From: Babesia bigemina
Lineage: Eukaryota
Length of the DNA: 64,000 nt
Assembly (NCBI RefSeq): GCF_000981445.1
Contig: NC_027216.1
Location: 992,001-1,056,000, forward strand
Direction: 5' to 3'
Shown: one piece after another, positions 905-64,000 of the stretch
Layout of the letters: every line of letters starts with the position of its first letter
Position numbering within the stretch: position 1 is the first letter of the stretch
Position numbers and translations under genes: made by a program
Notes under the pieces: generated by a model
What the model saw: the letters and a program-made list of their open reading frames with translations, nothing else
The model's database searches: none
What the model was told of the DNA's origin: nothing

Positions 905-1882
905 CGAGTTCGTGCTTTATTCGTAATTCAATCAACTAATGAAATCCATCCGTGGCCACAGGAACTACATCTGGACTATCTGCTACCATGGGAGTTAAAT
1001 TCAGAATATGGATGCTAAAGCCATCCTGAAGCGGCAACAACCATAAAACGCTCTGTATTACCGGCTATAGCTTTTGTTCTTCATCACTACGATACCGCTG
1101 GTTGTATTTTTAGCGTTCAAAACCTTACTCATGAAGGTAAAAGCTGCGGCTATTGTGCCTGTCATCAACAGTGTGCTGACTACGTAGCCAGGTCCGATGT
1201 TCGGCTTTTCGAAACTATAGACTAACCGTGCTGTTGGTTGCAGGTTCCACGTCTAGTCATTGACTTCATCCGTGCTACCACCCAGCTGGGTTGAGAGTAT
1301 CATTCATGGTCTCGCGATGACTTATGTCCCTGTCCACCAACTCACACATTAGACAAGGTATCAATTGGCAACATGCCGACTAGACGATCTCTTTTACCTT
1401 AGACTACCTCACCGAATCATCATACCGTACAAACTACTAAGCAATTAACTGAGCACTTCGTGGAAGTTCACGTCGAGACCACGGACCCCTGCCTACAAGG
1501 CTGCGGTGTTAAGTCCTCATCGTATGAGTTGTTCAAGCCTGACAAACCCAAAATCTACGATGATAACGGAGAAGACAGCGGCCGCAAAATTGATATTCAG
1601 GCTGCCAATGAAGCAGCGTTCTACTGCCCCCCTCCGTACGTACTTGACCCACCCAACTGCTTTCACCAAGTGTTAGTGGAGGGTGAAGCAAAGAGCGTAA
1701 TCGATATAAGCAAGTCGCTGATTGAATCAGCATCCAACCACTTCGTCATCTTGAAGTTCGACAGAGAACTCGTAGGACCTGGCGAAACGCTGCGCCAGAC
1801 CCAGCCGTTGGAGTGTCGCTGCGTCACCATCAAGGGCATCGTCCTGTCTACCATCCACATCGAGCATTACTACGCCAAGTAA
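905..1882 (+). pseudogene. Broken paralog of the 6-Cys/s48-45-like gene at 59541-62417; only the last domain is intact
   Basis: ORF 1460-1882 (TDPCLQGCG...LFKP...AAFYCPPPYVLDPPNCF...LECRCVTIKGIVLSTI) is a close paralog of the C-terminus of 59541-62417. There is a weaker upstream remnant (..YLLPW, ~905-1000), and the 3' flank is also conserved between the copies. Confidence 0.8.
1151..1350 (-). mobile_element. Short 3'-terminal remnant (copy A) of the putative RLE non-LTR retroelement
   Basis: 1169-1253 closely matches 58216-58301 (identical 24-nt and 20-nt blocks). Minus-strand translation ELVDRDISHRETMNDTLNPAG aligns with KIVMRDMKPREDYDSVEDPGA of copy C. Confidence 0.6.
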
Positions 1883-2322
1883 TGAGTAGCTCAGATGTAG
1901 TAAATCTTTTTGTCAATGACAGAGTTTAATTGTCATAGTTCATGTTGGTCGTTATGTTGGTTTGTGTCTCCAGTAGCAGCATGACTTTCGGTTAGAATGT
2001 GGTATTTGCTGTTTCCAATTCCAAGACACATTATTGTGTTGAAATAACTGTTTATTCTTGCATGAGTCCTCGTAAGTCAATCCAATGTCGCATATCGTAA
2101 TCACGTACAATTATACCATTCCGTTGTTTTTCGAACTGCCTTAATGGGGGAGATGGGATTTGCCCGTCTACACATATTCCAAGAATTCATAAGATTTGCA
2201 GTGCCATTAATACACGAATATGGATAGCGCCAGATACATGTAACTATAGTTCAAAAGGTACAATGGTGTTATTGACAGACTGCATTGTCAGTTCCTGTCC
2301 ACAGAAGGCCATCGGTGGGAAG

Positions 2323-2935
2323 TAGAACAAGTATGGCTTCATCTGCCCGTCATATCTTTAAATCATACCTCATTGTACAATATCCAAGAATAGAGTGAAT
2401 TATAGTGACGATTTCCAAGTGAGCCTTTCAAGGCGACACCGGGCCCACCCACAGCCTGCACCGTGATGGGCTAGGCGAGGAGAAAGTGCGAGGCTATGCA
2501 CGATGGGATATTACGTGTCAGATACTGGTCAATATGGTCGGACTAAGGTAAACATCAGGCAACTTGGAAATACGCCCGACACCCCTTGGCTCAACAAGAG
2601 GCCCGACCTTTCGGGTTGGAACGTGAGGCATTGCACTGGATTGGCTAACTTCATCTGAACAGCACGATAACACGAAAAACAAATCTCAGAGATGTGGTTA
2701 TATGTGTCAATCGAGGGGGTTCCGTAGCCAATTCAGCTAGTAAGTGCCGTCGGCCTGATGTCATTGTGCTAACAGGTGGGGGCATGTATCGTGGTGGTCT
2801 AGGCAGTTGTGCCGAAACTTTCTGAGATACTGCAATTTTAACACCACTGAACACTTTGAACCAACGAATGTGAAATGTACGAACCAGCAAGATATTTTCT
2901 CAGCGAATGGTGGGGGAAAGTTCGTAATAGATAGA
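2323..2935 (+). mobile_element. Degenerate retroelement remnant (copy F): post-zinc-knuckle RH motif plus RLE PD motif
   Basis: One frame from 2457 reads CTVMG*ARRKCEAMHDGILRVRYWSIWSD*G...VICVNRGGS...RRPDVIVL, with internal stops. VNRG is shared with copy C. Confidence 0.55.
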
Positions 2936-2949
2936 TGTCCATTTAGGGT

Positions 2950-3687
2950 TTGCATTTTGTAAAATGCTCACCAGGGGGTCTCATTGGAAGCTGGGACTCC
3001 GCCTACTACACTAACCCCTTCGACCCGTGCAACCTGTGCCACAAGAGCAGGATCAGGATGGGATTCAAGGAGACAGACTTACCAAGTAGTCAACAAACTG
3101 GCAGCATCCTTTCCACCATCCTCACTTTCTGCTGCGGCGGTAGTGACCCTTTGCTGACATTGTCTGCCTACCTCAATTGCTTAACCAGGCTGACGCCGAG
3201 TACCACCGGGGAGCTGGTCTCGTACTTCCACAATTTTGGTGTCGAGTTGCACGGTTATGCTTTGAAGTCGTTGTCTCCACTGGGCATCTCTCTTTCCAAT
3301 TCACACCCCAACTGCCCCGACTGGGACCGTCTTGATGGCACCGACCTCAAAGATCTCCGTGGCATCCGTGGTTCCGAGTCTCTCAACTCAACGCATGACC
3401 ATCTGAAGAGTCCACATAAGCAATTTGGAGACAACTTGGGTCATTTACATCGCCATCCACAATTGTTGCCAACTATCTACCATTCGCATGCCCTCTACCC
3501 CCTCGTCTTTGACTACACGATTTTTCACTTCTTGAATGTTCTGCCATGTTCCCAAAAGTTTCGACTCCCAAGGCGTCCTACTTCATTCACGTCACGACAA
3601 TACTCGTTCACTGGAAGAGGATACTCCTACCTTGCTACGACATCGACTGCTTCAATGACCCCATGGGCAAACATTGTTACATCGTAA
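2950..3687 (+). pseudogene. Fragment of a ves1/VESA1-like variant surface antigen gene
   Basis: PFDPCNLCHKSRIRMGF, DPLLTLSAYLNCLTRLTPSTTGELVSYFHNFG and HPNCPDWDRL are typical internal VESA-like segments. There is no ATG start, and homology is lost toward the 3' end. Confidence 0.7.
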
Positions 3688-3924: not shown

Positions 3925-4290
3925 GGAGCGCCATGCTGGGTTTGGGAATGGGCAATCATCCGGGTGGGTGTACAAAATTTGTATACTTGTTTGGGTTGCT
4001 ATAAGCGACGTTTTGCGTCTTCATACGAATTTTTGTAAAGCTGCGTCTCGATTCAGTGTCGTAGATCACAGAGGCATGTGTTAGCGCATTAGCATTGTAG
4101 ACATACGGTTGGAAGTTGTTGGACCGAACTGGCGGAATCACCTTCCGTTAGAATTCATATCAGCCATATTGGCATAAAGTAACATTGTATGGGAACGTAG
4201 GCAACCGAAGTTCAGGAATTCTCACGTTCATTGGGACAACAGAACCCAGGATTCTTTCAGGCTGATTCGCCTTGGCGTGGAGCCACAGGG
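3925..4290 (+). mobile_element. Old diverged remnant (copy B), inverted homolog of 58300-58650
   Basis: 4131-4226 is the reverse-complement homolog of ~58343-58440 (ttcctgaacttcggtt; ggaaggtgattccgcca). Translation AIIRVGVQNLY...ELAESPSVRIHI weakly parallels TIVEIGITNQY...DLGISDRMEAHI of copy C. Confidence 0.5.
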
Positions 4291-5048
4291 TTTGAAACAA
4301 AGCATCTGCAAATTAAGGTTTTACATTAGGTGCTCGAAACAAGGCATTATTTTACAAGCTATGAAATGCCGGGATATTCACATACAACGTCAGCCTCGTA
4401 CACACTAGTTTCATACACGGCAGTGCGCTGGATTCCATAGCAACCACATATCACAGTTGACATCAAGAGTGGCGTGAGAAGAAGGTGATCACATATCATA
4501 GCGTGCAGTCCTTATGTGTCAGTATGCATTCGCAATCAAAGTTGCTGCAAGCACTGAAAGCAATAAACAATTACGCCAATCACGGAAGGCGGTAGAAGCA
4601 GTGTATACATGCCTCATCAGGTGACTGCTGTCTTGATAATAAGAAGGCACTATTAGACTATATTAACGCTGCGAAAAGCTATTTGCAACCCATGGTAACA
4701 CTTTAATCTTCAACGTCTGTCCAAACTTGCAACGACACTTATAAGCCTAGTATGGGCGACTAGTGCCGCATATATACGCTTACAATGACTCGCGATAGTT
4801 GTACTGAATGCCGCGTCAATGGTATCGAGATCGAAGAGCTGGGGCATCTGTGTAGTTCCTTCCTTTACCATAGGTATCTTTGGCATATCTTAATCTTTCT
4901 AAATTTAAATTAGAAGCCTATTTATTAGGTCTAAGCTGCACTTTTGCATTGCGTATTGTCGAAGACAACTCGTCTGTTTGCAACCTGGCCTGCAAATGGA
5001 CCAATCCATACAGGAGTAGTAGCTGCATAGTTTAACTCATTTTTCAAA

Positions 5049-6035
5049 ATGGTGTACACTTCGTTGACTGACATCCCTCGTAACCTTAAAGAAGGTATTG
5101 ACTGGTTGTTGGCCGTGAAGGGAGCCGATGCTGAAAAGAACTTAGCGGCCATGGGCGCTGCCCTATACGACTTTCTCGTAGACAAGCCTGTAGGCTTCAC
5201 GGAGGTGCCAGCTCTCGAGAATGTTAAGCTTATTTCGAAAGAGTTCCTGGAGCGACAGGAATTTAAGGACATGTGGCCTGCAAACGAGCTGCTGGGGAGA
5301 TTCAACAACCATGTGAAGACACAAAACATAGACCACCTTAAGTACCCGTTTCCCATAAACGACAGCGATTTTTCGAATGTCGTGCGTGCCAGGCGTGCCG
5401 TACCTGAAAAAATCGCAGAGGACCTAGGTAGGATTGTGGATGGTTGCGAGAGCTTCCTGGAGCATATCGTACTCCCTGAGCAGTATTTATCTGCTTATAA
5501 TTCAGAAGCAACTTGGAAGAAATCATGTTCGGAAAAGCCGGAAGATTGCGCAGTGGTACTTGTGGGTATTGCGCCAATGTTGTACGCAGGACTGCGTTCT
5601 TTGAAGGTCGCGTGCGACAATGAACGCCTAGGTGGGGTACCAGGGGCTAAGGCGATGAGCAGTTTGGGAAGTGTACTGTTGGCTGATGGTTACCAGGAAA
5701 AGCAATGGCCCACTGCAATGACCCCTTCATATGTCGCTAAGGCGTTGGAAGGTGTGAGTCATGAGGTGTTGGTCACGCTCTACGACTTCGCTGGATTCTG
5801 GGCTTTCTATGGATTGCATGACCCCAACAATGTTCCAGCTGTAAAATCTGGCGAGCTTGACAAGGACGCACAGGAGTTTATTGACTTCTACGTCAACATG
5901 AAGCCCATTAACCCTCCCAAGAAGAAGTTGCAGTTCATTAAGTCGCCCAGCACATACACTGCCACCGGATCGAACAACATGTATTACCCCTGGCTGCCAA
6001 CAGTGTTGGATATGGGTGATACTGTCCCACTTTAA
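5049..6035 (+). CDS. Short ves-related protein (VESA N-terminal-like domain only; ves2-like)
   Basis: Starts MVYTSLTDIPRNLKEGIDWL, the typical ves-family N-terminus, and carries an SEATW..SC...PEDCAVVLVGIAPMLYAGL motif. Single exon, 328 aa, no C-terminal TM segment. Confidence 0.8.
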   Translation: MVYTSLTDIPRNLKEGIDWLLAVKGADAEKNLAAMGAALYDFLVDKPVGFTEVPALENVKLISKEFLERQEFKDMWPANELLGRFNNHVKTQNIDHLKYPFPINDSDFSNVVRARRAVPEKIAEDLGRIVDGCESFLEHIVLPEQYLSAYNSEATWKKSCSEKPEDCAVVLVGIAPMLYAGLRSLKVACDNERLGGVPGAKAMSSLGSVLLADGYQEKQWPTAMTPSYVAKALEGVSHEVLVTLYDFAGFWAFYGLHDPNNVPAVKSGELDKDAQEFIDFYVNMKPINPPKKKLQFIKSPSTYTATGSNNMYYPWLPTVLDMGDTVPL

Positions 6036-6229: not shown

Positions 6230-6735
6230 CTATGAGTCAGTGCAGCGACCCGGCATCGCAGTAAACCGTGGATATGCCTGATACCATCTGGATGTCTGAG
6301 GAACACCGTCACTATCGTGGAGATAGGAATCACCAATCAATACAACCTAGTGGATACGGAGAAGTTCAAGAAGCAGAAGTAGGCAGACCTTATCGAGGAC
6401 CTCAAGGCGCGACAGTTCAACCAGCAGACCAAGATTTGGGTTATCCCCTACGTTATGACGTGGGAGGGAATAGTGACAAAGGAGCACAGCAAGTACAGAC
6501 GGGACCTGGGCATATCGGATCGCATGGAAGCCCACATACAAAGGGTAGTGATCCAAGAAACACATAAAATAGTGATGAGGGACATGAAACCAAGAGAAGA
6601 CTACGATTCTGTAGAAGACCCTGGTGCCCAAACTTGATGGACACCCGCATGGATGACACCAGTTACGATCGGCAACGGACCGATGTGGAACCCGCAGCCA
6701 GCACCAACGTGAGGCGCAGGCATGGTAAGGTTAAA
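6230..6735 (+). mobile_element. Best-preserved RLE endonuclease remnant of a non-LTR retrotransposon (copy C), pseudogenised
   Basis: MPDTIWMSE (6274-6300), then a +1 frameshift, then NTVTIVEIGITNQYNLVDTEKFKKQK*(TAG 6380-6382)ADLIEDL...WVIPYVMTWEGIVTKEHSKYRRDLGISDRMEAHIQ. This fits the PD..E..KxxKY RLE pattern. Confidence 0.75.
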
Positions 6736-58190: not shown

Positions 58191-58650
58191 TTATTATTAT
58201 GGTGTCTGTCTTTTACAGTGTGCTCTGACTACATGGCCAGGTCCGATGTTCGGCTTTTCAGGGATATATACTAAAGGTGCTGTTGGTTGCAGGTTCACGT
58301 CAGGCAGACCTATGTAACCCTTGAATTCTGTACCGGTGTAACCGTCGGGATTCCTGAACTTCGGTTTCCCGCATTACCATATAGCGTTTAATCATGTCAA
58401 TGTAACCAGATTTGAATTCCGATGGAAGGTGATTCCGCCACCTTCTCACCGCATCCGTGTGCCACGCTGGTAATGTAATAGTAACTGTCTGTGCGCGCTA
58501 CGGTGCGAGATTAAGGTGCTGAAGAGTCACATGGATTTGCCAGCCGACACAAAATATTACATCATATAGATACTCTAACAATCACTCGCATTTCGTGAAT
58601 TCACCCGGCGGATGGCCCAACGCCTCTCCCATGCTGCCGACTCCGGCAGC
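58191..58650 (-). mobile_element. Retroelement remnant (copy D), ending in a short TAA-repeat tail
   Basis: 3' part matches 1169-1253 and 5' part matches inverted 3925-4290; ends ...cacactgtaaaagacagacaccataataataa in element sense. Confidence 0.55.
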
Positions 58651-58720: not shown

Positions 58721-59235
58721 TATTATTATGTTCTCTCATCTTATAGTGTGCTATCTGGCTACATGTGACTTGTGTTACTGTTAAGTTTACCAAGGCTACC
58801 GCCTCACTCTGAAACCGGTTGCGGGATCCACGTCGGTCCATTGCCGATCGTCACTGGTGCCATCCATGCGGGCGTCTATCAAGTTTGGGGTAGAGGTTAG
58901 TTGGCCGGGTCATTATCATCAATAGGTATCACGTTACTCATCGCAGCGTACGGATTTGTAGCTCTAACATCGCGTTGGATGTGGGAATATATGCGATCGG
59001 AGATGCCAAGAGCTAGTAGATGCATATTATACTGTCGCTCCACAATCCATTTCCACGTCACAACATTTGGTACAACCATGGGCATCGTCTTATCCTTTAA
59101 AAGGCATTGGTACCTTTCACGCTTCTATGGCATCGTCTCCACAACGTTATATGCGCTGTAAATCGCCACATCGAGAATGGCGATAGCATTGCGATGATAA
59201 TGTATCGCCAATGATGGGTGTCTTGCAGAGGAGAA
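58721..59235 (-). mobile_element. Retroelement RLE remnant (copy E), homolog of copy C
   Basis: Single minus frame: RHPSLAIHYHRNAIAILDVAIYSAYNVVETMP*KRERYQCLLKD..VVPNVVTWKWIV..LGISDRIYSHIQR. 58817-58889 matches 6627-6699 at 65/73 nt (manual count). Confidence 0.7.
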
Positions 59236-59540: not shown

Positions 59541-62417
59541 ATGGCGCAATGTATGAGAGTCCAGTTGGCAATTTGCGCTATAGTTCTGCAGCTTATTGGA
59601 TTCATAGGCGCAGTGGAATATGGTTTCATTAATAATATGAGTTCTTTGGGTGCCAATCCCCTAGTTGTATACCACATAAACATGGATGAAATTGGGATAG
59701 CAACTCTGACATGCCCACGCCAAGTCAACGGAACTGAGTACGTATGGAATCCCCAACCAACAGCTGATCACGACGTCAGTCTCAAAACCTATGTGATTGA
59801 AGACGGTAAATTTCACTTCGTCCCTTTTTCAAAGGTAGTGGTCACCGAAGCACCACGCCCATATGTTCGGAAAGTGTCAAAGGAGTCGCAAACAGACTTG
59901 CATATCGATCTAATGGATGACGATATATATGCCATTACTGAAGAACGTTTAGTATTCATATGTGGTCCAAGGGATTTGGTCTTGACAGATGCTCTGCAAG
60001 GCCAACTTGCTCGCCTACCGGAGATTTATGAAACGGATATTTATTCATGGGATTCAACCACGCCATTGATTGAAGAAATAGCTAAGATAGGAATAAGCCT
60101 GGGTGTAATATTCTTGCACAGAGGCCTTAATCATCAATTACTGCAAGGCTGTGGAAGTCGTCCCTCGAAACTCTTTGCTCGAGATAATGACGTGACTGTA
60201 GACCCTATCACTGGCACACGTTCTTGTGTAGTAGATCCAATGTCGACATTACGCACTGGGTTCGTTTGCAAAGGCAGAATAGAACCGAACGATTGCATGA
60301 AATACCTCCTGTACGAAGACAGAGTGGTAACTGCTCCTCGACCATATTCGTATCGTTATTTTAATACCCATAAGCCTTGGGTGGTAGCTAGATATTTTAA
60401 TGACGTAGCATTACCCCGTTTCAACGGCGAATGTCGATGCATAGATCCTAAGACTGGTCACGTGAAAGCAAGGATGGAGATTCGTTGGAAAACTGAATAC
60501 GTTTGTGACATAGCTAGCATGATTGTTCGTAACAGGTTGAAGCCTATTAGTGGGCCGTGGTGTTCAGTAATGCTACATCCGGGTGCTACGTTGACCATTA
60601 AGTTGCCAAAACAGACAGACAAGTCGGCTGCTACCGGCGAAGAATACGAAGAAGACGTTGACGATATTGACTATGATCCTTCGACAGTTCCATTTTCGCA
60701 ACTTCCATCTACCCACGCATACGAAAGTGAATTCAAGCCGGACACGGAGTTGACGCTACGCCAAATACAAACGATTTATGACATCAATGATTACGACGAA
60801 ATCGTGACCAACAAAGCGTTCACTGGCGACGTGCTCGAGGTAGATATTTCACAAATGGAGAGAGGAGAGGTTAAGCTGAAGTACCATACGGGCAGACCTC
60901 TTGCATTACGAAGTGGATACAATTCGTTCTTATATCATTGGACATTCATATCTAGGAACGAATACGTTCTAGAAAAGATACGCGCTGTGGTGAACGTCTC
61001 ATTTGCGCCTACTTATCGCTACAATATTATTGGTTGTGACCGATGGAGGCCAGGTATGTTTGATCCGGCAAATGACGTTGGCTCTCTTACAATTAGAAAC
61101 ATGCGGAATGGTATAGGGAAAATAGCTGAATGGCTGTTAGATGTCATGAGTGGCGAGGAACAAGCGGGTATTCAATGCCAACCCAATGAGGAGCTGTTTC
61201 CAAACAATTGTGAGTCCACAGGATACGATCTTTCCTCCAATCAGGTTGCGCCATTCCCTACATCTGTGCGCAATGTCACACTTTACCCCGTTCGAGGATT
61301 TCAGGTATTCGAGATGAGCTTCCAAAATGTGCCTGTCAGTCACGCTTGCAGTTGTGTCGATGAACATGGATACGAGACATCTAGGCTAATTTTGAGATCC
61401 AACCGTCGTGAGGAGTATGAGTATACAGTAAGTCGTGAAGAGGCAAATCAAAGGTTGCTGCCCTACTCATTACTGCCCTGGACCGAGGTGGCTTTCTTAC
61501 ACGGCGATCGCACTCCTATGCAATCAATTAAGCTACACAACACACCCCATAGACCTATGAAACTACATTCGGGCACAGTATTATCCATGCGGTGTGTTAT
61601 GTACCACGCATTGTACAACGGTGAGAATAACGCTGCCGCAATGCCTACCTGGTTACCAGATTATCCTGGATTTAACCATTACAAAATATATACTACCGCA
61701 GAAGGAGATAGGTTAATTAAAAGGCCACACGACGAGAGTATAGCTGGCACAAGACGTGGATTCCAAGTCACGCTGTCAGAATACACAGAAGAATATAGTG
61801 ATTTGCTAATCAAATCCAACAGTGGCTCAATTTTGGTATCCAGGGATCCAGATCACTCGGAATACGTGCCCATGACATTCGTTTGTGGTAAGGAGATTTC
61901 AGAATCAGATTTTGATCAAAGCAACGATAACGCAGCTGCAGCTGCCATTCCCCCACCTGTAGCACTATTAGAGGAATACACGTGGAACGTAGTTCAAATT
62001 GACGTAGAGATGACGGACCCATACATGCAAGGGTGCGGAATTACTGACTCAAGAGATACTCTATTCAAGCCCGAGACACCCAAACTCTACAGCTCCATCA
62101 TACGACACCCTCGCGGCTGCAAGATCGACATTCAGACTGCGGGTGAGGCGGCGTTCTACTGCCCAGCACCGTACGTCCTGGACCCACCCAACTGCTTCGA
62201 CCAGGTCTCCGTGAACGGTGAAGTGAAGAACCTCAGCGACATCAGCCAGTCTTTGGTGGCTTCTCGAACTAAGCACTTCGTTACCTTGCGGTTCGACAGT
62301 GAACTCATTGGACCCGGGGAAAAGCTGCGCCAGACCCCGCCACTTGAATGCCGCTGCGTCACCGTCAAAGGCATCGTCCTCTCCACCATCCAGATTGGGA
62401 ACTACTACAACAAGTAA
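59541..62417 (+). CDS. Secreted Cys-rich protein with several s48/45 (6-Cys)-like domains, multicopy family
   Basis: N-terminal signal peptide; repeated GC...C...(F/I)xC....PxxC...CxC modules (e.g. MQGCG..CKIDI..FYCPAPYVLDPPNCFDQV..LECRC); paralog fragment at 1460-1882. Confidence 0.75.
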   Translation: MAQCMRVQLAICAIVLQLIGFIGAVEYGFINNMSSLGANPLVVYHINMDEIGIATLTCPRQVNGTEYVWNPQPTADHDVSLKTYVIEDGKFHFVPFSKVVVTEAPRPYVRKVSKESQTDLHIDLMDDDIYAITEERLVFICGPRDLVLTDALQGQLARLPEIYETDIYSWDSTTPLIEEIAKIGISLGVIFLHRGLNHQLLQGCGSRPSKLFARDNDVTVDPITGTRSCVVDPMSTLRTGFVCKGRIEPNDCMKYLLYEDRVVTAPRPYSYRYFNTHKPWVVARYFNDVALPRFNGECRCIDPKTGHVKARMEIRWKTEYVCDIASMIVRNRLKPISGPWCSVMLHPGATLTIKLPKQTDKSAATGEEYEEDVDDIDYDPSTVPFSQLPSTHAYESEFKPDTELTLRQIQTIYDINDYDEIVTNKAFTGDVLEVDISQMERGEVKLKYHTGRPLALRSGYNSFLYHWTFISRNEYVLEKIRAVVNVSFAPTYRYNIIGCDRWRPGMFDPANDVGSLTIRNMRNGIGKIAEWLLDVMSGEEQAGIQCQPNEELFPNNCESTGYDLSSNQVAPFPTSVRNVTLYPVRGFQVFEMSFQNVPVSHACSCVDEHGYETSRLILRSNRREEYEYTVSREEANQRLLPYSLLPWTEVAFLHGDRTPMQSIKLHNTPHRPMKLHSGTVLSMRCVMYHALYNGENNAAAMPTWLPDYPGFNHYKIYTTAEGDRLIKRPHDESIAGTRRGFQVTLSEYTEEYSDLLIKSNSGSILVSRDPDHSEYVPMTFVCGKEISESDFDQSNDNAAAAAIPPPVALLEEYTWNVVQIDVEMTDPYMQGCGITDSRDTLFKPETPKLYSSIIRHPRGCKIDIQTAGEAAFYCPAPYVLDPPNCFDQVSVNGEVKNLSDISQSLVASRTKHFVTLRFDSELIGPGEKLRQTPPLECRCVTVKGIVLSTIQIGNYYNK

Positions 62418-63352
62418 CAAGTAGCTCAGATTTGGTCACTCTTTTGGCAATGAACCACTTTAATTGTCATTGTTCATGTTGGTCGATCTGGTGGTTTGTG
62501 TCACGCGTGAGAGAATTGCTTTGGGTAGAGTGTTGCGATTATAATTGCCAGTCTAACGACATATTCTTGTGTTGTCGTAGCTTTTTGTAACTAGCGTGAA
62601 TGGCCATGGGCCCGGTGAAGACCGTACTGTGGAATTACATGTCACAACCACTTAGTTGGGCACTGTCTACCGCAGGCATTAGGAAGATGCAACTTAGAGG
62701 TTTGCATCTCCGTTCGCATTTTGAAACCTTAACAATGCCCTTAACACACGACAAAGAGCAATACGTGGTACCTTGAACGGGACTTCACTGAGCCCCCAAT
62801 TTGGGTGAGCAATTACTGCGGCGGTGCCTGAGCACGTTGGTCGACCGCTGGGAGTGGGTGGCTAGACCGTGTGGATTTCACCCTATTTAGGCGAATCTCG
62901 GTCATTCTTTGCCTATGTATGAGTTAATCTTCGGTGTGGTGGCATTTATCGTCAGCATCGTCATAAGTCTCGAGGTCGTAACCCCAGAATGCACCCTAGC
63001 AGAGGCTTTGAGGGGCGCCCCGCAAACATGGCCACCCACTTATTAGTTACCCCGCAGGAGTTGCTACGCAAGTGCGCACAATGCCAGTCTATGTCGGGTA
63101 TCCACATTTTCAGAGTTTGAGTGGAAGTGACTGCAATTTGATGGAGATTATGCTGGCACCATAACCAGTCATAGTTTAGTTAACCGTGATTAGCAAGAAC
63201 GTGCAGGAGCAGCCAGCATTGAAAGCACGCTTACGAGAGCGTACCTTGAGAGCAGCCGGGTTGTGTATCTCTACCTGAAGACGGTACTTTGAGGTTCAGG
63301 TACACTGCTAATTTTTGTCCGCGGCAGTGCTTTTGAAACCGTCACGTGCAAG

Positions 63353-64000
63353 ATGGCTGTGTCAGCAGCAGAGAATGAACAAACCTATCAGGCAGTAAGT
63401 GATTCTACGGACTGCAATAGTCATGCGAAACACAACGAGGATGGGAATGAGGGAATGCTGATGGATATTAGCGAAATGAAGGCAACGGTGGAGGATAAGA
63501 TGGAAACGAGGGAGTCGCTACAGGATATTAACGAAATGAAGGCAACGGTGGAGGATAAGATGGAAACGAGGGAGTCGCTACAGGATATTAACGAAATGAA
63601 GGCAACGGTGGAGGATAAGATGGAAACGAGGGAGTCGCTACAGGATATTAGCGAAATGAAGGCAACGGTGGAGGATAAGATGGAAACGAGGGAGTCGCTA
63701 CAGGATATTAACGAAATGAAGGCAACGGTGGAGGATAAGATGGAAACGAGGGAGTCGCTACAGGATATTAGCGAAATGAAGGCAACGGTGGAGGATAAGA
63801 TGGAAACGAGGGAGTCGCTACAGGATATTAACGAAATGAAGGCAACGGTGGAGGATAAGATGGAAACGAGGGAGTCGCTACAGGATATTAACGAAATGAA
63901 GGCAACGGTGGAGGATAAGATGGAAACGAGGGAGTCGCTACAGGATATGAGGGAAATGATGAAGTTGCTGAAGGATATGAGGGAAATGATGAAGTCGCTG
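63353..64000 (+). CDS. Tandem-repeat protein, 3'-partial; upstream exons are possible
   Basis: Open frame from ATG 63353 to the window end, encoding (D I [N/S] E M K A T V E D K M E T R E S L Q)x8 and then DMREMMKLLK-type units. Confidence 0.7.
   Translation, partial: MAVSAAENEQTYQAVSDSTDCNSHAKHNEDGNEGMLMDISEMKATVEDKMETRESLQDINEMKATVEDKMETRESLQDINEMKATVEDKMETRESLQDISEMKATVEDKMETRESLQDINEMKATVEDKMETRESLQDISEMKATVEDKMETRESLQDINEMKATVEDKMETRESLQDINEMKATVEDKMETRESLQDMREMMKLLKDMREMMKSL
63463..64000. repeat. Coding minisatellite: 8 near-identical 60-bp units followed by 30-bp units
   Basis: Directly visible; the 60-bp units differ at a single A/G position. Confidence 0.98.

What the first reader, a model, noticed from the sequence alone, without database searches (positions are those of the whole stretch)
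2323..2935. Longer 5' remnant preserving the RH..PD architecture, abutting a ves fragment
One frame from 2457 reads C-x12-MHDGILRVRYWSIWSD*G...VICVNRG...RRPDVIVL. In RLE LINEs the last zinc-knuckle Cys is followed by RH(D/N)x(I/V)xxx(I/L)xWxxxxxYG and then RPD. Just upstream, *NKYGFICP and LYNIQE recall the WLxxGxxxPxxE...QD linker. VNRG also precedes the PD motif in copy C. The remnant ends ~15 nt before the ves-like fragment. The H-to-PD spacing (~85 codons) is longer than I would expect.
Basis: partly seen in the sequence, partly recalled or inferred. Interest (0 to 1): 0.75.

Follow-up and report, generated by a model that had tools for sequence, protein, structure and literature searches.

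The report
Old retrotransposon relic beside ves fragment
In the cattle parasite Babesia bigemina, this stretch is likely the badly decayed, probably dead tail of an old jumping gene, of another kind than the parasite's already reported ones, lying against a broken surface-antigen gene; the match is faint and could still be chance.

Summary
The motifs are present as described. The stretch does not come from B. bigemina's known LINE family: 0 of 123 related proteins hit it, while two real remnants in this window (6299-6700; 59193-58810) hit strongly. It is not ves either: 0 of 92 VESA1-type proteins match 1900-2940, and all 92 match from about 2980. Standard profiles give background scores. Letters in related copies give back three conserved residues (2-8 of 100 random controls). 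Profile and gap costs were chosen after seeing the data, the zinc knuckle and KxxKY are missing, and the upstream part is not significant. Verdict: probably (0.55) a dead relic of a second endonuclease-LINE lineage, joined to a 5'-truncated ves1 piece and duplicated with it at least four times; otherwise chance motifs in non-coding flank. The better register puts PD at NLRD (2682-2693), not RRPD. LINEs in B. bigemina are already published. Interest low.

The parts
2457..2924 (+). Likely decayed C-terminal piece (last knuckle Cys, RH helix, endonuclease core) of an animal-type R4/Dong-like LINE, in one frame with 5 internal stops
   Evidence: Translation; P0113 pairwise 30% over 82 aa, E 0.009 on a 64-kb database, best of 155 queries; single-frame profile alignment
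2487..2549 (+). RH-helix-like motif (MHD..I....YW.I...*G)
   Evidence: 11.9 bits in fixed register; 9 of 127,874 window positions score as high; related copies have the conserved Y and C but lose the W and, in some, the D
2682..2702 (+). NLRDVVI, likely the NRPDIVI equivalent; the proline is not kept
   Evidence: Alignments
2745..2771 (+).
   Evidence: (as PD, needs a 31-codon insertion and a frameshift) versus (as second D, no frameshift)
2154..2456 (+). Upstream flank with thumb-like (PVYTYS, IDRLH) and linker-like (IQE) words in the same frame; not significant
   Evidence: 13.2 bits, 30-82 of 300 codon shuffles as high; other frames score the same
2907..2974 (+). Match to the 5-residue first exon and a GT..AG intron of three paralogous B. 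bigemina gene models; prediction only
   Evidence: P0139, P0231 and P0140 begin MVGER
2980..3659 (+). 5'-truncated ves1-type fragment with one block of 114 profile columns missing and one frameshift
   Evidence: 92 of 92 VESA1-type proteins; profile alignment; Atlas lead VESA1, score 0.89
6299..6734 (+). Copy C: true 3' remnant of the known B. bigemina RT-endonuclease LINE (context)
   Evidence: 90% identical to P0002 residues 1211-1344, E 5e-68
58781..59193 (-). Older 3' remnant of the same known family (positive control)
   Evidence: 42% identical to P0002 residues 1211-1346, E 7e-25; 4 stops in 128 codons, no frameshift

Best explanation
The stretch 2457-2924 is likely the decayed endonuclease end of an old non-LTR retrotransposon of the animal-type R4/Dong-like group; it is not a piece of B. 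bigemina's known LINE family and not ves sequence, and it is probably inert. Inferred history: an element inserted here by target-primed reverse transcription and decayed by point mutation. A later deletion would have removed its last codons and 3' UTR and set it against the middle of a ves1 gene. The relic-plus-ves block was then copied, and at least four versions exist. Shown: the motifs, the two exclusions, the ves boundary at about 2980 and the paralogous blocks. Inferred: LINE origin, clade, order of events.
For: (1) The best of 38 sub-clade profiles gives z 4.3; 0 of 60 nulls reach that with any clade. (3) The whole 84-sequence group gives 29.4 bits with cheap long gaps: 1 of 200 region nulls, 1 of 33 tiles, 0 of 700 non-coding nulls, about 0.04 after allowing for 25 tile-strands. 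(5) Stop density (5 internal in 156 codons) and the kept frame resemble the certain remnant at 59 kb (4 in 128). (6) The locus holds a certain LINE remnant 3.4 kb away.
Against: Standard methods see nothing: 0 of 123 proteins at E<=1; HMMs at or below -1.7 bits versus 110 and 34 for the controls; frameshift-aware 17.8 and 21.2 bits versus null maxima near 28; no locus at E<1e-3 among 34; 53 sub-clade HMMs at most 2.3 bits; no protein of 213-2000 aa among 51 candidates. With ordinary gap costs the decay aligner gives 22 bits (16 of 200 nulls, 5 of 33 tiles). Gap costs and clade were chosen after seeing the data. The aligner is biased in coding DNA (88 of 342 tiles reach 29.4), and codon-shuffle nulls are lenient (a misregistered alignment to the Babesia-type profile reached 5 and 2 of 200). 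With the broad profile the allele test is weak (33 of 100; 7, 37 and 33 of 120), and related copies also lose the D, the W and a candidate KY tyrosine and gain 2 stops. Knuckle, PD proline and KxxKY are missing; the register needs four insertions (2, 5, 2 and 7+7 codons); upstream is not significant. No element of this type was among the piroplasm proteins returned.
Confidence: 0.55

Rival explanations
1. Non-coding 5' flank of a small duplicated family of truncated ves1 pieces; the endonuclease-like words are chance, picked by a reader who was looking for them next to real remnants.
Against: The co-linear single-frame alignment beats all 400 matched nulls and 32 tiles; unseen alleles favour conserved residues.
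Confidence: 0.35
2. Relic of another endonuclease-LINE clade (HERO, NeSL, CRE or R2) in the reader's own register, with RRPD as the PD motif and a frameshift into ACIVVV..MY..W.
For: The broad profile chooses this register, with RH, PD, D, KY and W landmarks in order. HERO elements have an H-to-PD spacing near 80 (recalled, from no call).
Against: It needs a 31-codon insertion against all 155 elements held (spacing 40-66); related copies in all 3 runs have a stop at the KY tyrosine; no R2 protein of the PDB is matched. No HERO, NeSL or CRE sequence could be fetched, so this is largely untested.
Confidence: 0.07
3. A longer 5' remnant of the same B. bigemina LINE family as copy C.
For: The family has many intact copies and two remnants in this window.
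Against: No hit with the intact ORF (18 bits versus 462 and 163 for the two remnants); the Babesia/microsporidia-type profile scores at background.
Confidence: 0.02
4. Frameshifted upstream part of the adjoining ves1 pseudogene.
For: It adjoins the ves piece, and another frame (2467-2655) is open with the highest synonymous share, 6 of 16.
Against: 0 of 92 VESA1-type proteins match 1900-2940; a ves profile scores at control level (17.5 versus 15-16 bits); none of the 92 library hits has its best stretch in 2467-2655. Only ves proteins related to the adjoining piece were in hand.
Confidence: 0.01

Closest known systems
B. bigemina RT-endonuclease LINE (P0002, XP_012770787.1, 1347 aa; LINE-like elements reported in PMC9141347)
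   Same: Same genome and locus type; same C-terminal plan (knuckle, RH, PD, D/E, K..KY) if the relic is real.
   Different: No detectable similarity to the finding; its family groups with T. equi, microsporidian and environmental elements, apart from the arthropod group.
Animal-type R4/Dong-like elements (P0113, P0106, P0116 from Penaeus, loci L047 and L067; the label R4/Dong is recalled, no named reference was fetched)
   Same: Co-linear C..RHD..W..C..W..HP..W..H..N.xD..KC..D..MW in one frame.
   Different: At most 30% identity; no knuckle, PD proline or KxxKY; in-frame insertions; the last 35 or more residues and the 3' UTR are absent; no RT domain found upstream.
Truncated ves1-type gene models BBBOND_0204320, BBBOND_0202310 and BBBOND_0202950 (P0139, P0231, P0140)
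   Same: Same ves start point, same short first exon that lies inside the finding, 82% identity over 235 aa for P0139.

Membership tests
Endonuclease (RLE) LINEs | CX2-3CX7-8HX4C zinc knuckle (PMC5678591, passages) | tested here: not met
   Only a possible last Cys at 2457; by eye the loose end of a related contig reads like two Cys, one base out of frame, not scored
Endonuclease (RLE) LINEs | RH at the first endonuclease helix, 10 residues after the last Cys | tested here: inconclusive
   MH instead of RH (R in 101 of 104) and a gap of 12 instead of 10 (97 of 101); helix score 11.9 bits
Endonuclease (RLE) LINEs | PD motif 40-66 residues after the His, then a second D/E | tested here: inconclusive
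   RRPD lies at 85 (outside the range of 155 elements); NLRD lies at 63 but lacks the proline; second D present in that register
Endonuclease (RLE) LINEs | KX2KY catalytic motif (PMC5678591, passages) | tested here: not met
   Absent in the single-frame register; only MY after a frameshift in the other register, a stop in related copies
Endonuclease (RLE) LINEs | Reverse transcriptase domain upstream in the same ORF | tested here: not met
   No Pfam RT hit in six frames; thumb-like words not significant. Expected for a 5'-truncated copy
Endonuclease (RLE) LINEs | Intact 3' end, tail or target-site duplication | tested here: inconclusive
   The frame ends about 35 or more residues short of the elements and ves begins about 50 nt later; target-site duplications were not searched
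B. bigemina LINE family (P0002) | Sequence similarity to the intact ORF | tested here: not met
HERO, NeSL, CRE clades | Similarity to clade-specific C-termini | not testable with these tools
   No such sequence was recognised among those returned; R2 chains of the PDB gave no match
ves1 (VESA1) | Similarity to VESA1-type proteins | tested here: not met
   0 of 92 over 1900-2940; met only from about 2980

The most novel reading that the evidence does not exclude
Babesia once carried a second, animal-type endonuclease LINE, separate from its microsporidia-like family and perhaps picked up from a tick or vertebrate host; its insertion and a later deletion created the 5' end of a duplicated family of short, truncated ves1-type reading frames, so that a fossil retrotransposon supplies the start codon of a variant-antigen offshoot.
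Probability: 0.15. Interest if true: 0.55.

Novelty: new member of a known kind. Interest (0 to 1): 0.27.

Why it matters
LINE-like elements in B. bigemina, B. ovata, B. divergens and T. equi are already reported (PMC9141347), and RT-motif gene clusters in B. caballi and B. ovata too (PMC10463595), so one more remnant is ordinary. If real, this one would show a second, extinct lineage and so more than one invasion of piroplasms, and it would tie retroelement debris to the breakpoints of ves genes, whose movement between loci is documented (PMC4066756). Searches listed no paper whose title or abstract start points to a second lineage or such a link; I read only five papers in part. As it stands it is a faint fossil with no sign of function.

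Tried and rejected
No whole genome was held, so the paralogous flanks could not be read directly. Pfam on six frames (35), PDB, Rfam, Atlas on the 63-codon open frame (44), a metagenome scan with the ves piece (36) and earlier findings (43, 52, 89, 90) gave nothing on the stretch. My first idea, that the stretch is the frameshifted upstream part of the ves gene, came from recalled VESA motifs and was rejected. A motif-pattern shuffle (0 of 40 strict, 1 of 40 loose) is circular, because the pattern was fitted to the observation, and is not counted. No DNA-level internal duplication explains the long spacing. Two loose-end motifs have no match in the window. No RNA holder was listed; this says nothing on expression. 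No fold was predicted: the frame is broken and has no alignment. Of 81 variant rows only 40 were shown, unphased; I used 39 and the 35 up to 2917. Of 198 proteins only 120 were listed.

Full report
Setting. The window is from Babesia bigemina by its proteins: copy C is 93% identical to a B. bigemina RT protein, and a window protein clusters with a named B. bigemina 6-Cys protein. No whole genome was held. The first 7 kb are gene-family debris: a 6-Cys gene fragment at 1439-1879 whose DNA match to the gene at 59.5-62.4 kb runs to 2041, the finding, a ves1-type piece, a VESA-like gene at 5049-6035 (ves2 is my inference from PMC4066756) and a LINE remnant.

Observation. Two details fail. Ves homology starts at about 2980: 54 of 92 VESA1-type proteins begin there, and contig depth rises from about 5 to 400 near 2990. 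The VNRG of copy C lies upstream of that copy's homology to the intact element, which starts at 6299.

The known family. B. bigemina has intact 1347-aa ORFs with an RT domain followed by a knuckle, RH, NRPD, E and K..KY; two clusters hold 10 and 4 members. Two true remnants lie in the window, at 6299-6700 (90%) and 59193-58810 (42%). The finding is not of this family. None of 123 proteins hit it at E<=1, while 94 and 77 hit the two remnants. The intact ORF gives 18 bits against 462 and 163, and the Babesia/microsporidia-type profile scores at background.

Not ves. I first suspected an upstream, frameshifted part of the ves gene. A library search returned 92 VESA1-type proteins. All 92 match the piece at 2980-3684 and none matches 1900-2940; a ves profile gives 17.5 bits there against 15-16 for controls. 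Three B. bigemina gene models (P0139, P0231, P0140) are paralogs of the same truncated piece and begin with a 5-residue exon that matches 2907-2919 followed by a GT..AG intron. Contigs from 3 runs of 3 studies cover parts of 2282-2990 at 87-97% identity without indels, and 2 bridge the junction. So flank plus ves piece is a block that exists in at least four versions. The ves piece lacks one block of 114 profile columns and has one frameshift.

Standard tests for an endonuclease LINE are blank. HMMs from 104 and 32 C-termini score the stretch at or below -1.7 bits. A frameshift-aware alignment gives 17.8 and 21.2 bits, with 22 and 9 of 114 tiles as high. I widened the set with 114 loci to 155 C-termini; their H-to-P spacing is 40-66, with 91 at 56. 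The best pair, P0113, gives 28.5 bits against a null maximum of 29, or 30% over 82 residues at E 0.009 for one query on 64 kb; the full-length search had missed it. Fifty-three sub-clade HMMs give at most 2.3 bits.

A decay-aware test is borderline positive. I wrote an aligner that scores each codon as a mutated descendant of a profile column, so that stops count as decayed codons. With the 84 animal-type sequences and ordinary gaps the stretch scores 22.0 bits (16 of 200 region-matched nulls, 5 of 33 non-coding tiles). With three cheaper gap settings, tried afterwards, it scores 29.4, 35.4 and 35.3 (1, 4 and 12 of 200; 1 of 33 tiles each). Against a non-coding null it is 0 and 1 of 700, about 0.04-0.07 after allowing for 25 tile-strands. 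Coding tiles inflate this score (88 of 342 tiles reach 29.4), so only non-coding nulls are fair. Across 38 sub-clades the best z is 4.3 and 0 of 60 nulls reach it with any clade. This register brings the spacing to 63. It needs several in-frame insertions and has no KxxKY.

Independent check. In this register they give the conserved Tyr before RH, the Cys of the helix and the Trp of KMW in all 3 runs. They also remove the helix Trp, in 2 runs the Asp of MHD, and add 2 stops. As a score, the real letters beat random changes in all but 4, 5, 2 and 8 of 100 trials with the sub-clade profiles, but only modestly with the broad profile (7, 37 and 33 of 120; 33 of 100). Upstream, the best thumb alignment falls in the same frame and order, but 30-82 of 300 shuffles score as high and other frames do as well. 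Codon shuffles are lenient: a misregistered alignment to the Babesia-type profile reached 5 and 2 of 200. The stop density, 5 internal in 156 codons, is close to that of the certain remnant at 59 kb, 4 in 128 with no frameshift, so a frame-keeping relic of this age is plausible in this genome.

How it most likely arose. Endonuclease LINEs nick DNA and copy their RNA from the 3' end, often leaving 5'-truncated copies (established knowledge). A copy of an animal-type element would have landed here long ago and decayed. Because the frame ends about 35 or more residues short of the elements and ves starts about 50 nt later, the junction cannot be a clean 3' end; a later deletion is needed (inference). 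The block was then duplicated. Changes between copies show no coding constraint in this frame, so it is probably inert.

What is known. PMC9141347 (passages, section 3.2, one supplement search) reports LINE-like elements in B. bigemina (0.97% of the genome), B. ovata, B. divergens and T. equi. PMC10463595 (passages) notes RT-motif gene clusters in B. caballi and B. ovata. PMC4066756 (passages and part 1 of section 22) defines ves1a, ves1b and ves2 and their movement between loci. PMC5678591 and PMC4640811 (passages) give the defining motifs and the five clades. In an RT tree of 48 rows the 8 Babesia rows (100/100) sit with T. equi, microsporidian and environmental elements, apart from the arthropod group (100/100) that holds P0113 and P0116. 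The label R4/Dong for that group and the HERO spacing are recalled. Searches listed nothing on a second lineage by title or abstract start; supplements other than that of PMC9141347 were not read and could bear on this.

Verdict. Real motifs, not the known family, not ves, more likely than not a dead relic of a second endonuclease LINE. It fails several membership features, as a relic would, so it should be filed as probable only. Interest 0.27.

Noticed in passing
window 6299-6734 (+) and 59193-58781 (-): Both true LINE remnants start at the same residue (1211) of the intact ORF, just after the PD motif, despite 90% and 42% identity, and end at about the same 3' point; this may mark a shared short derivative or a preferred truncation point.
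   Followed up: partly
P0136 (4034 aa), P0005 (1501 aa), P0134: Several Babesia gene models fuse the RT-endonuclease ORF to other sequence: P0005 carries VESA1_N and P0136 ends, by eye, in a ves1-like tail. The elements may insert next to ves genes often.
   Followed up: no
P0002, P0003, P0007, P0049 and relatives: Piroplasm LINEs are 42-46% identical to microsporidian and environmental elements and group with them rather than with arthropod elements; horizontal transfer was not tested.
   Followed up: partly
window 2907-3687 (+): The truncated ves1-type unit keeps an open 235-codon stretch with the same non-canonical tail in the window and in P0139 (82% identity), P0231 is 90% identical to P0139, and P0140 ends early; pseudogene family or short variant antigen is open.
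   Followed up: partly
window 2467-2655 (+): A 63-codon open frame overlapping the finding has the highest synonymous share among related copies (6 of 16, one new stop) but no match; 2431-2631 is covered by higher-depth contigs whose flanks differ.
   Followed up: partly
window 1151-1253 with 58198-58301; 4130-4219 with 58440-58350: Two short non-coding repeats (83% and 76% identity) shared between the two ends of the window; not part of copy C's flank; unexplained.
   Followed up: no
window 1439-2041 with 61996-62574: 3' fragment of a 6-Cys (s48/45) gene, 61% protein identity to the 958-aa gene at 59541-62414, with shared 3' flank.
   Followed up: partly
window 4791-4880 (+): Weak knuckle-like match to three LINE proteins (best E 0.3); not significant.
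   Followed up: no
window 63463-63959: 60-bp tandem array, 8.3 copies, 98% matches, inside an open frame.
   Followed up: no
L003-L034: Eukaryote-type LINE contigs sit in many prokaryotic genome records, probably bin contamination.
   Followed up: no
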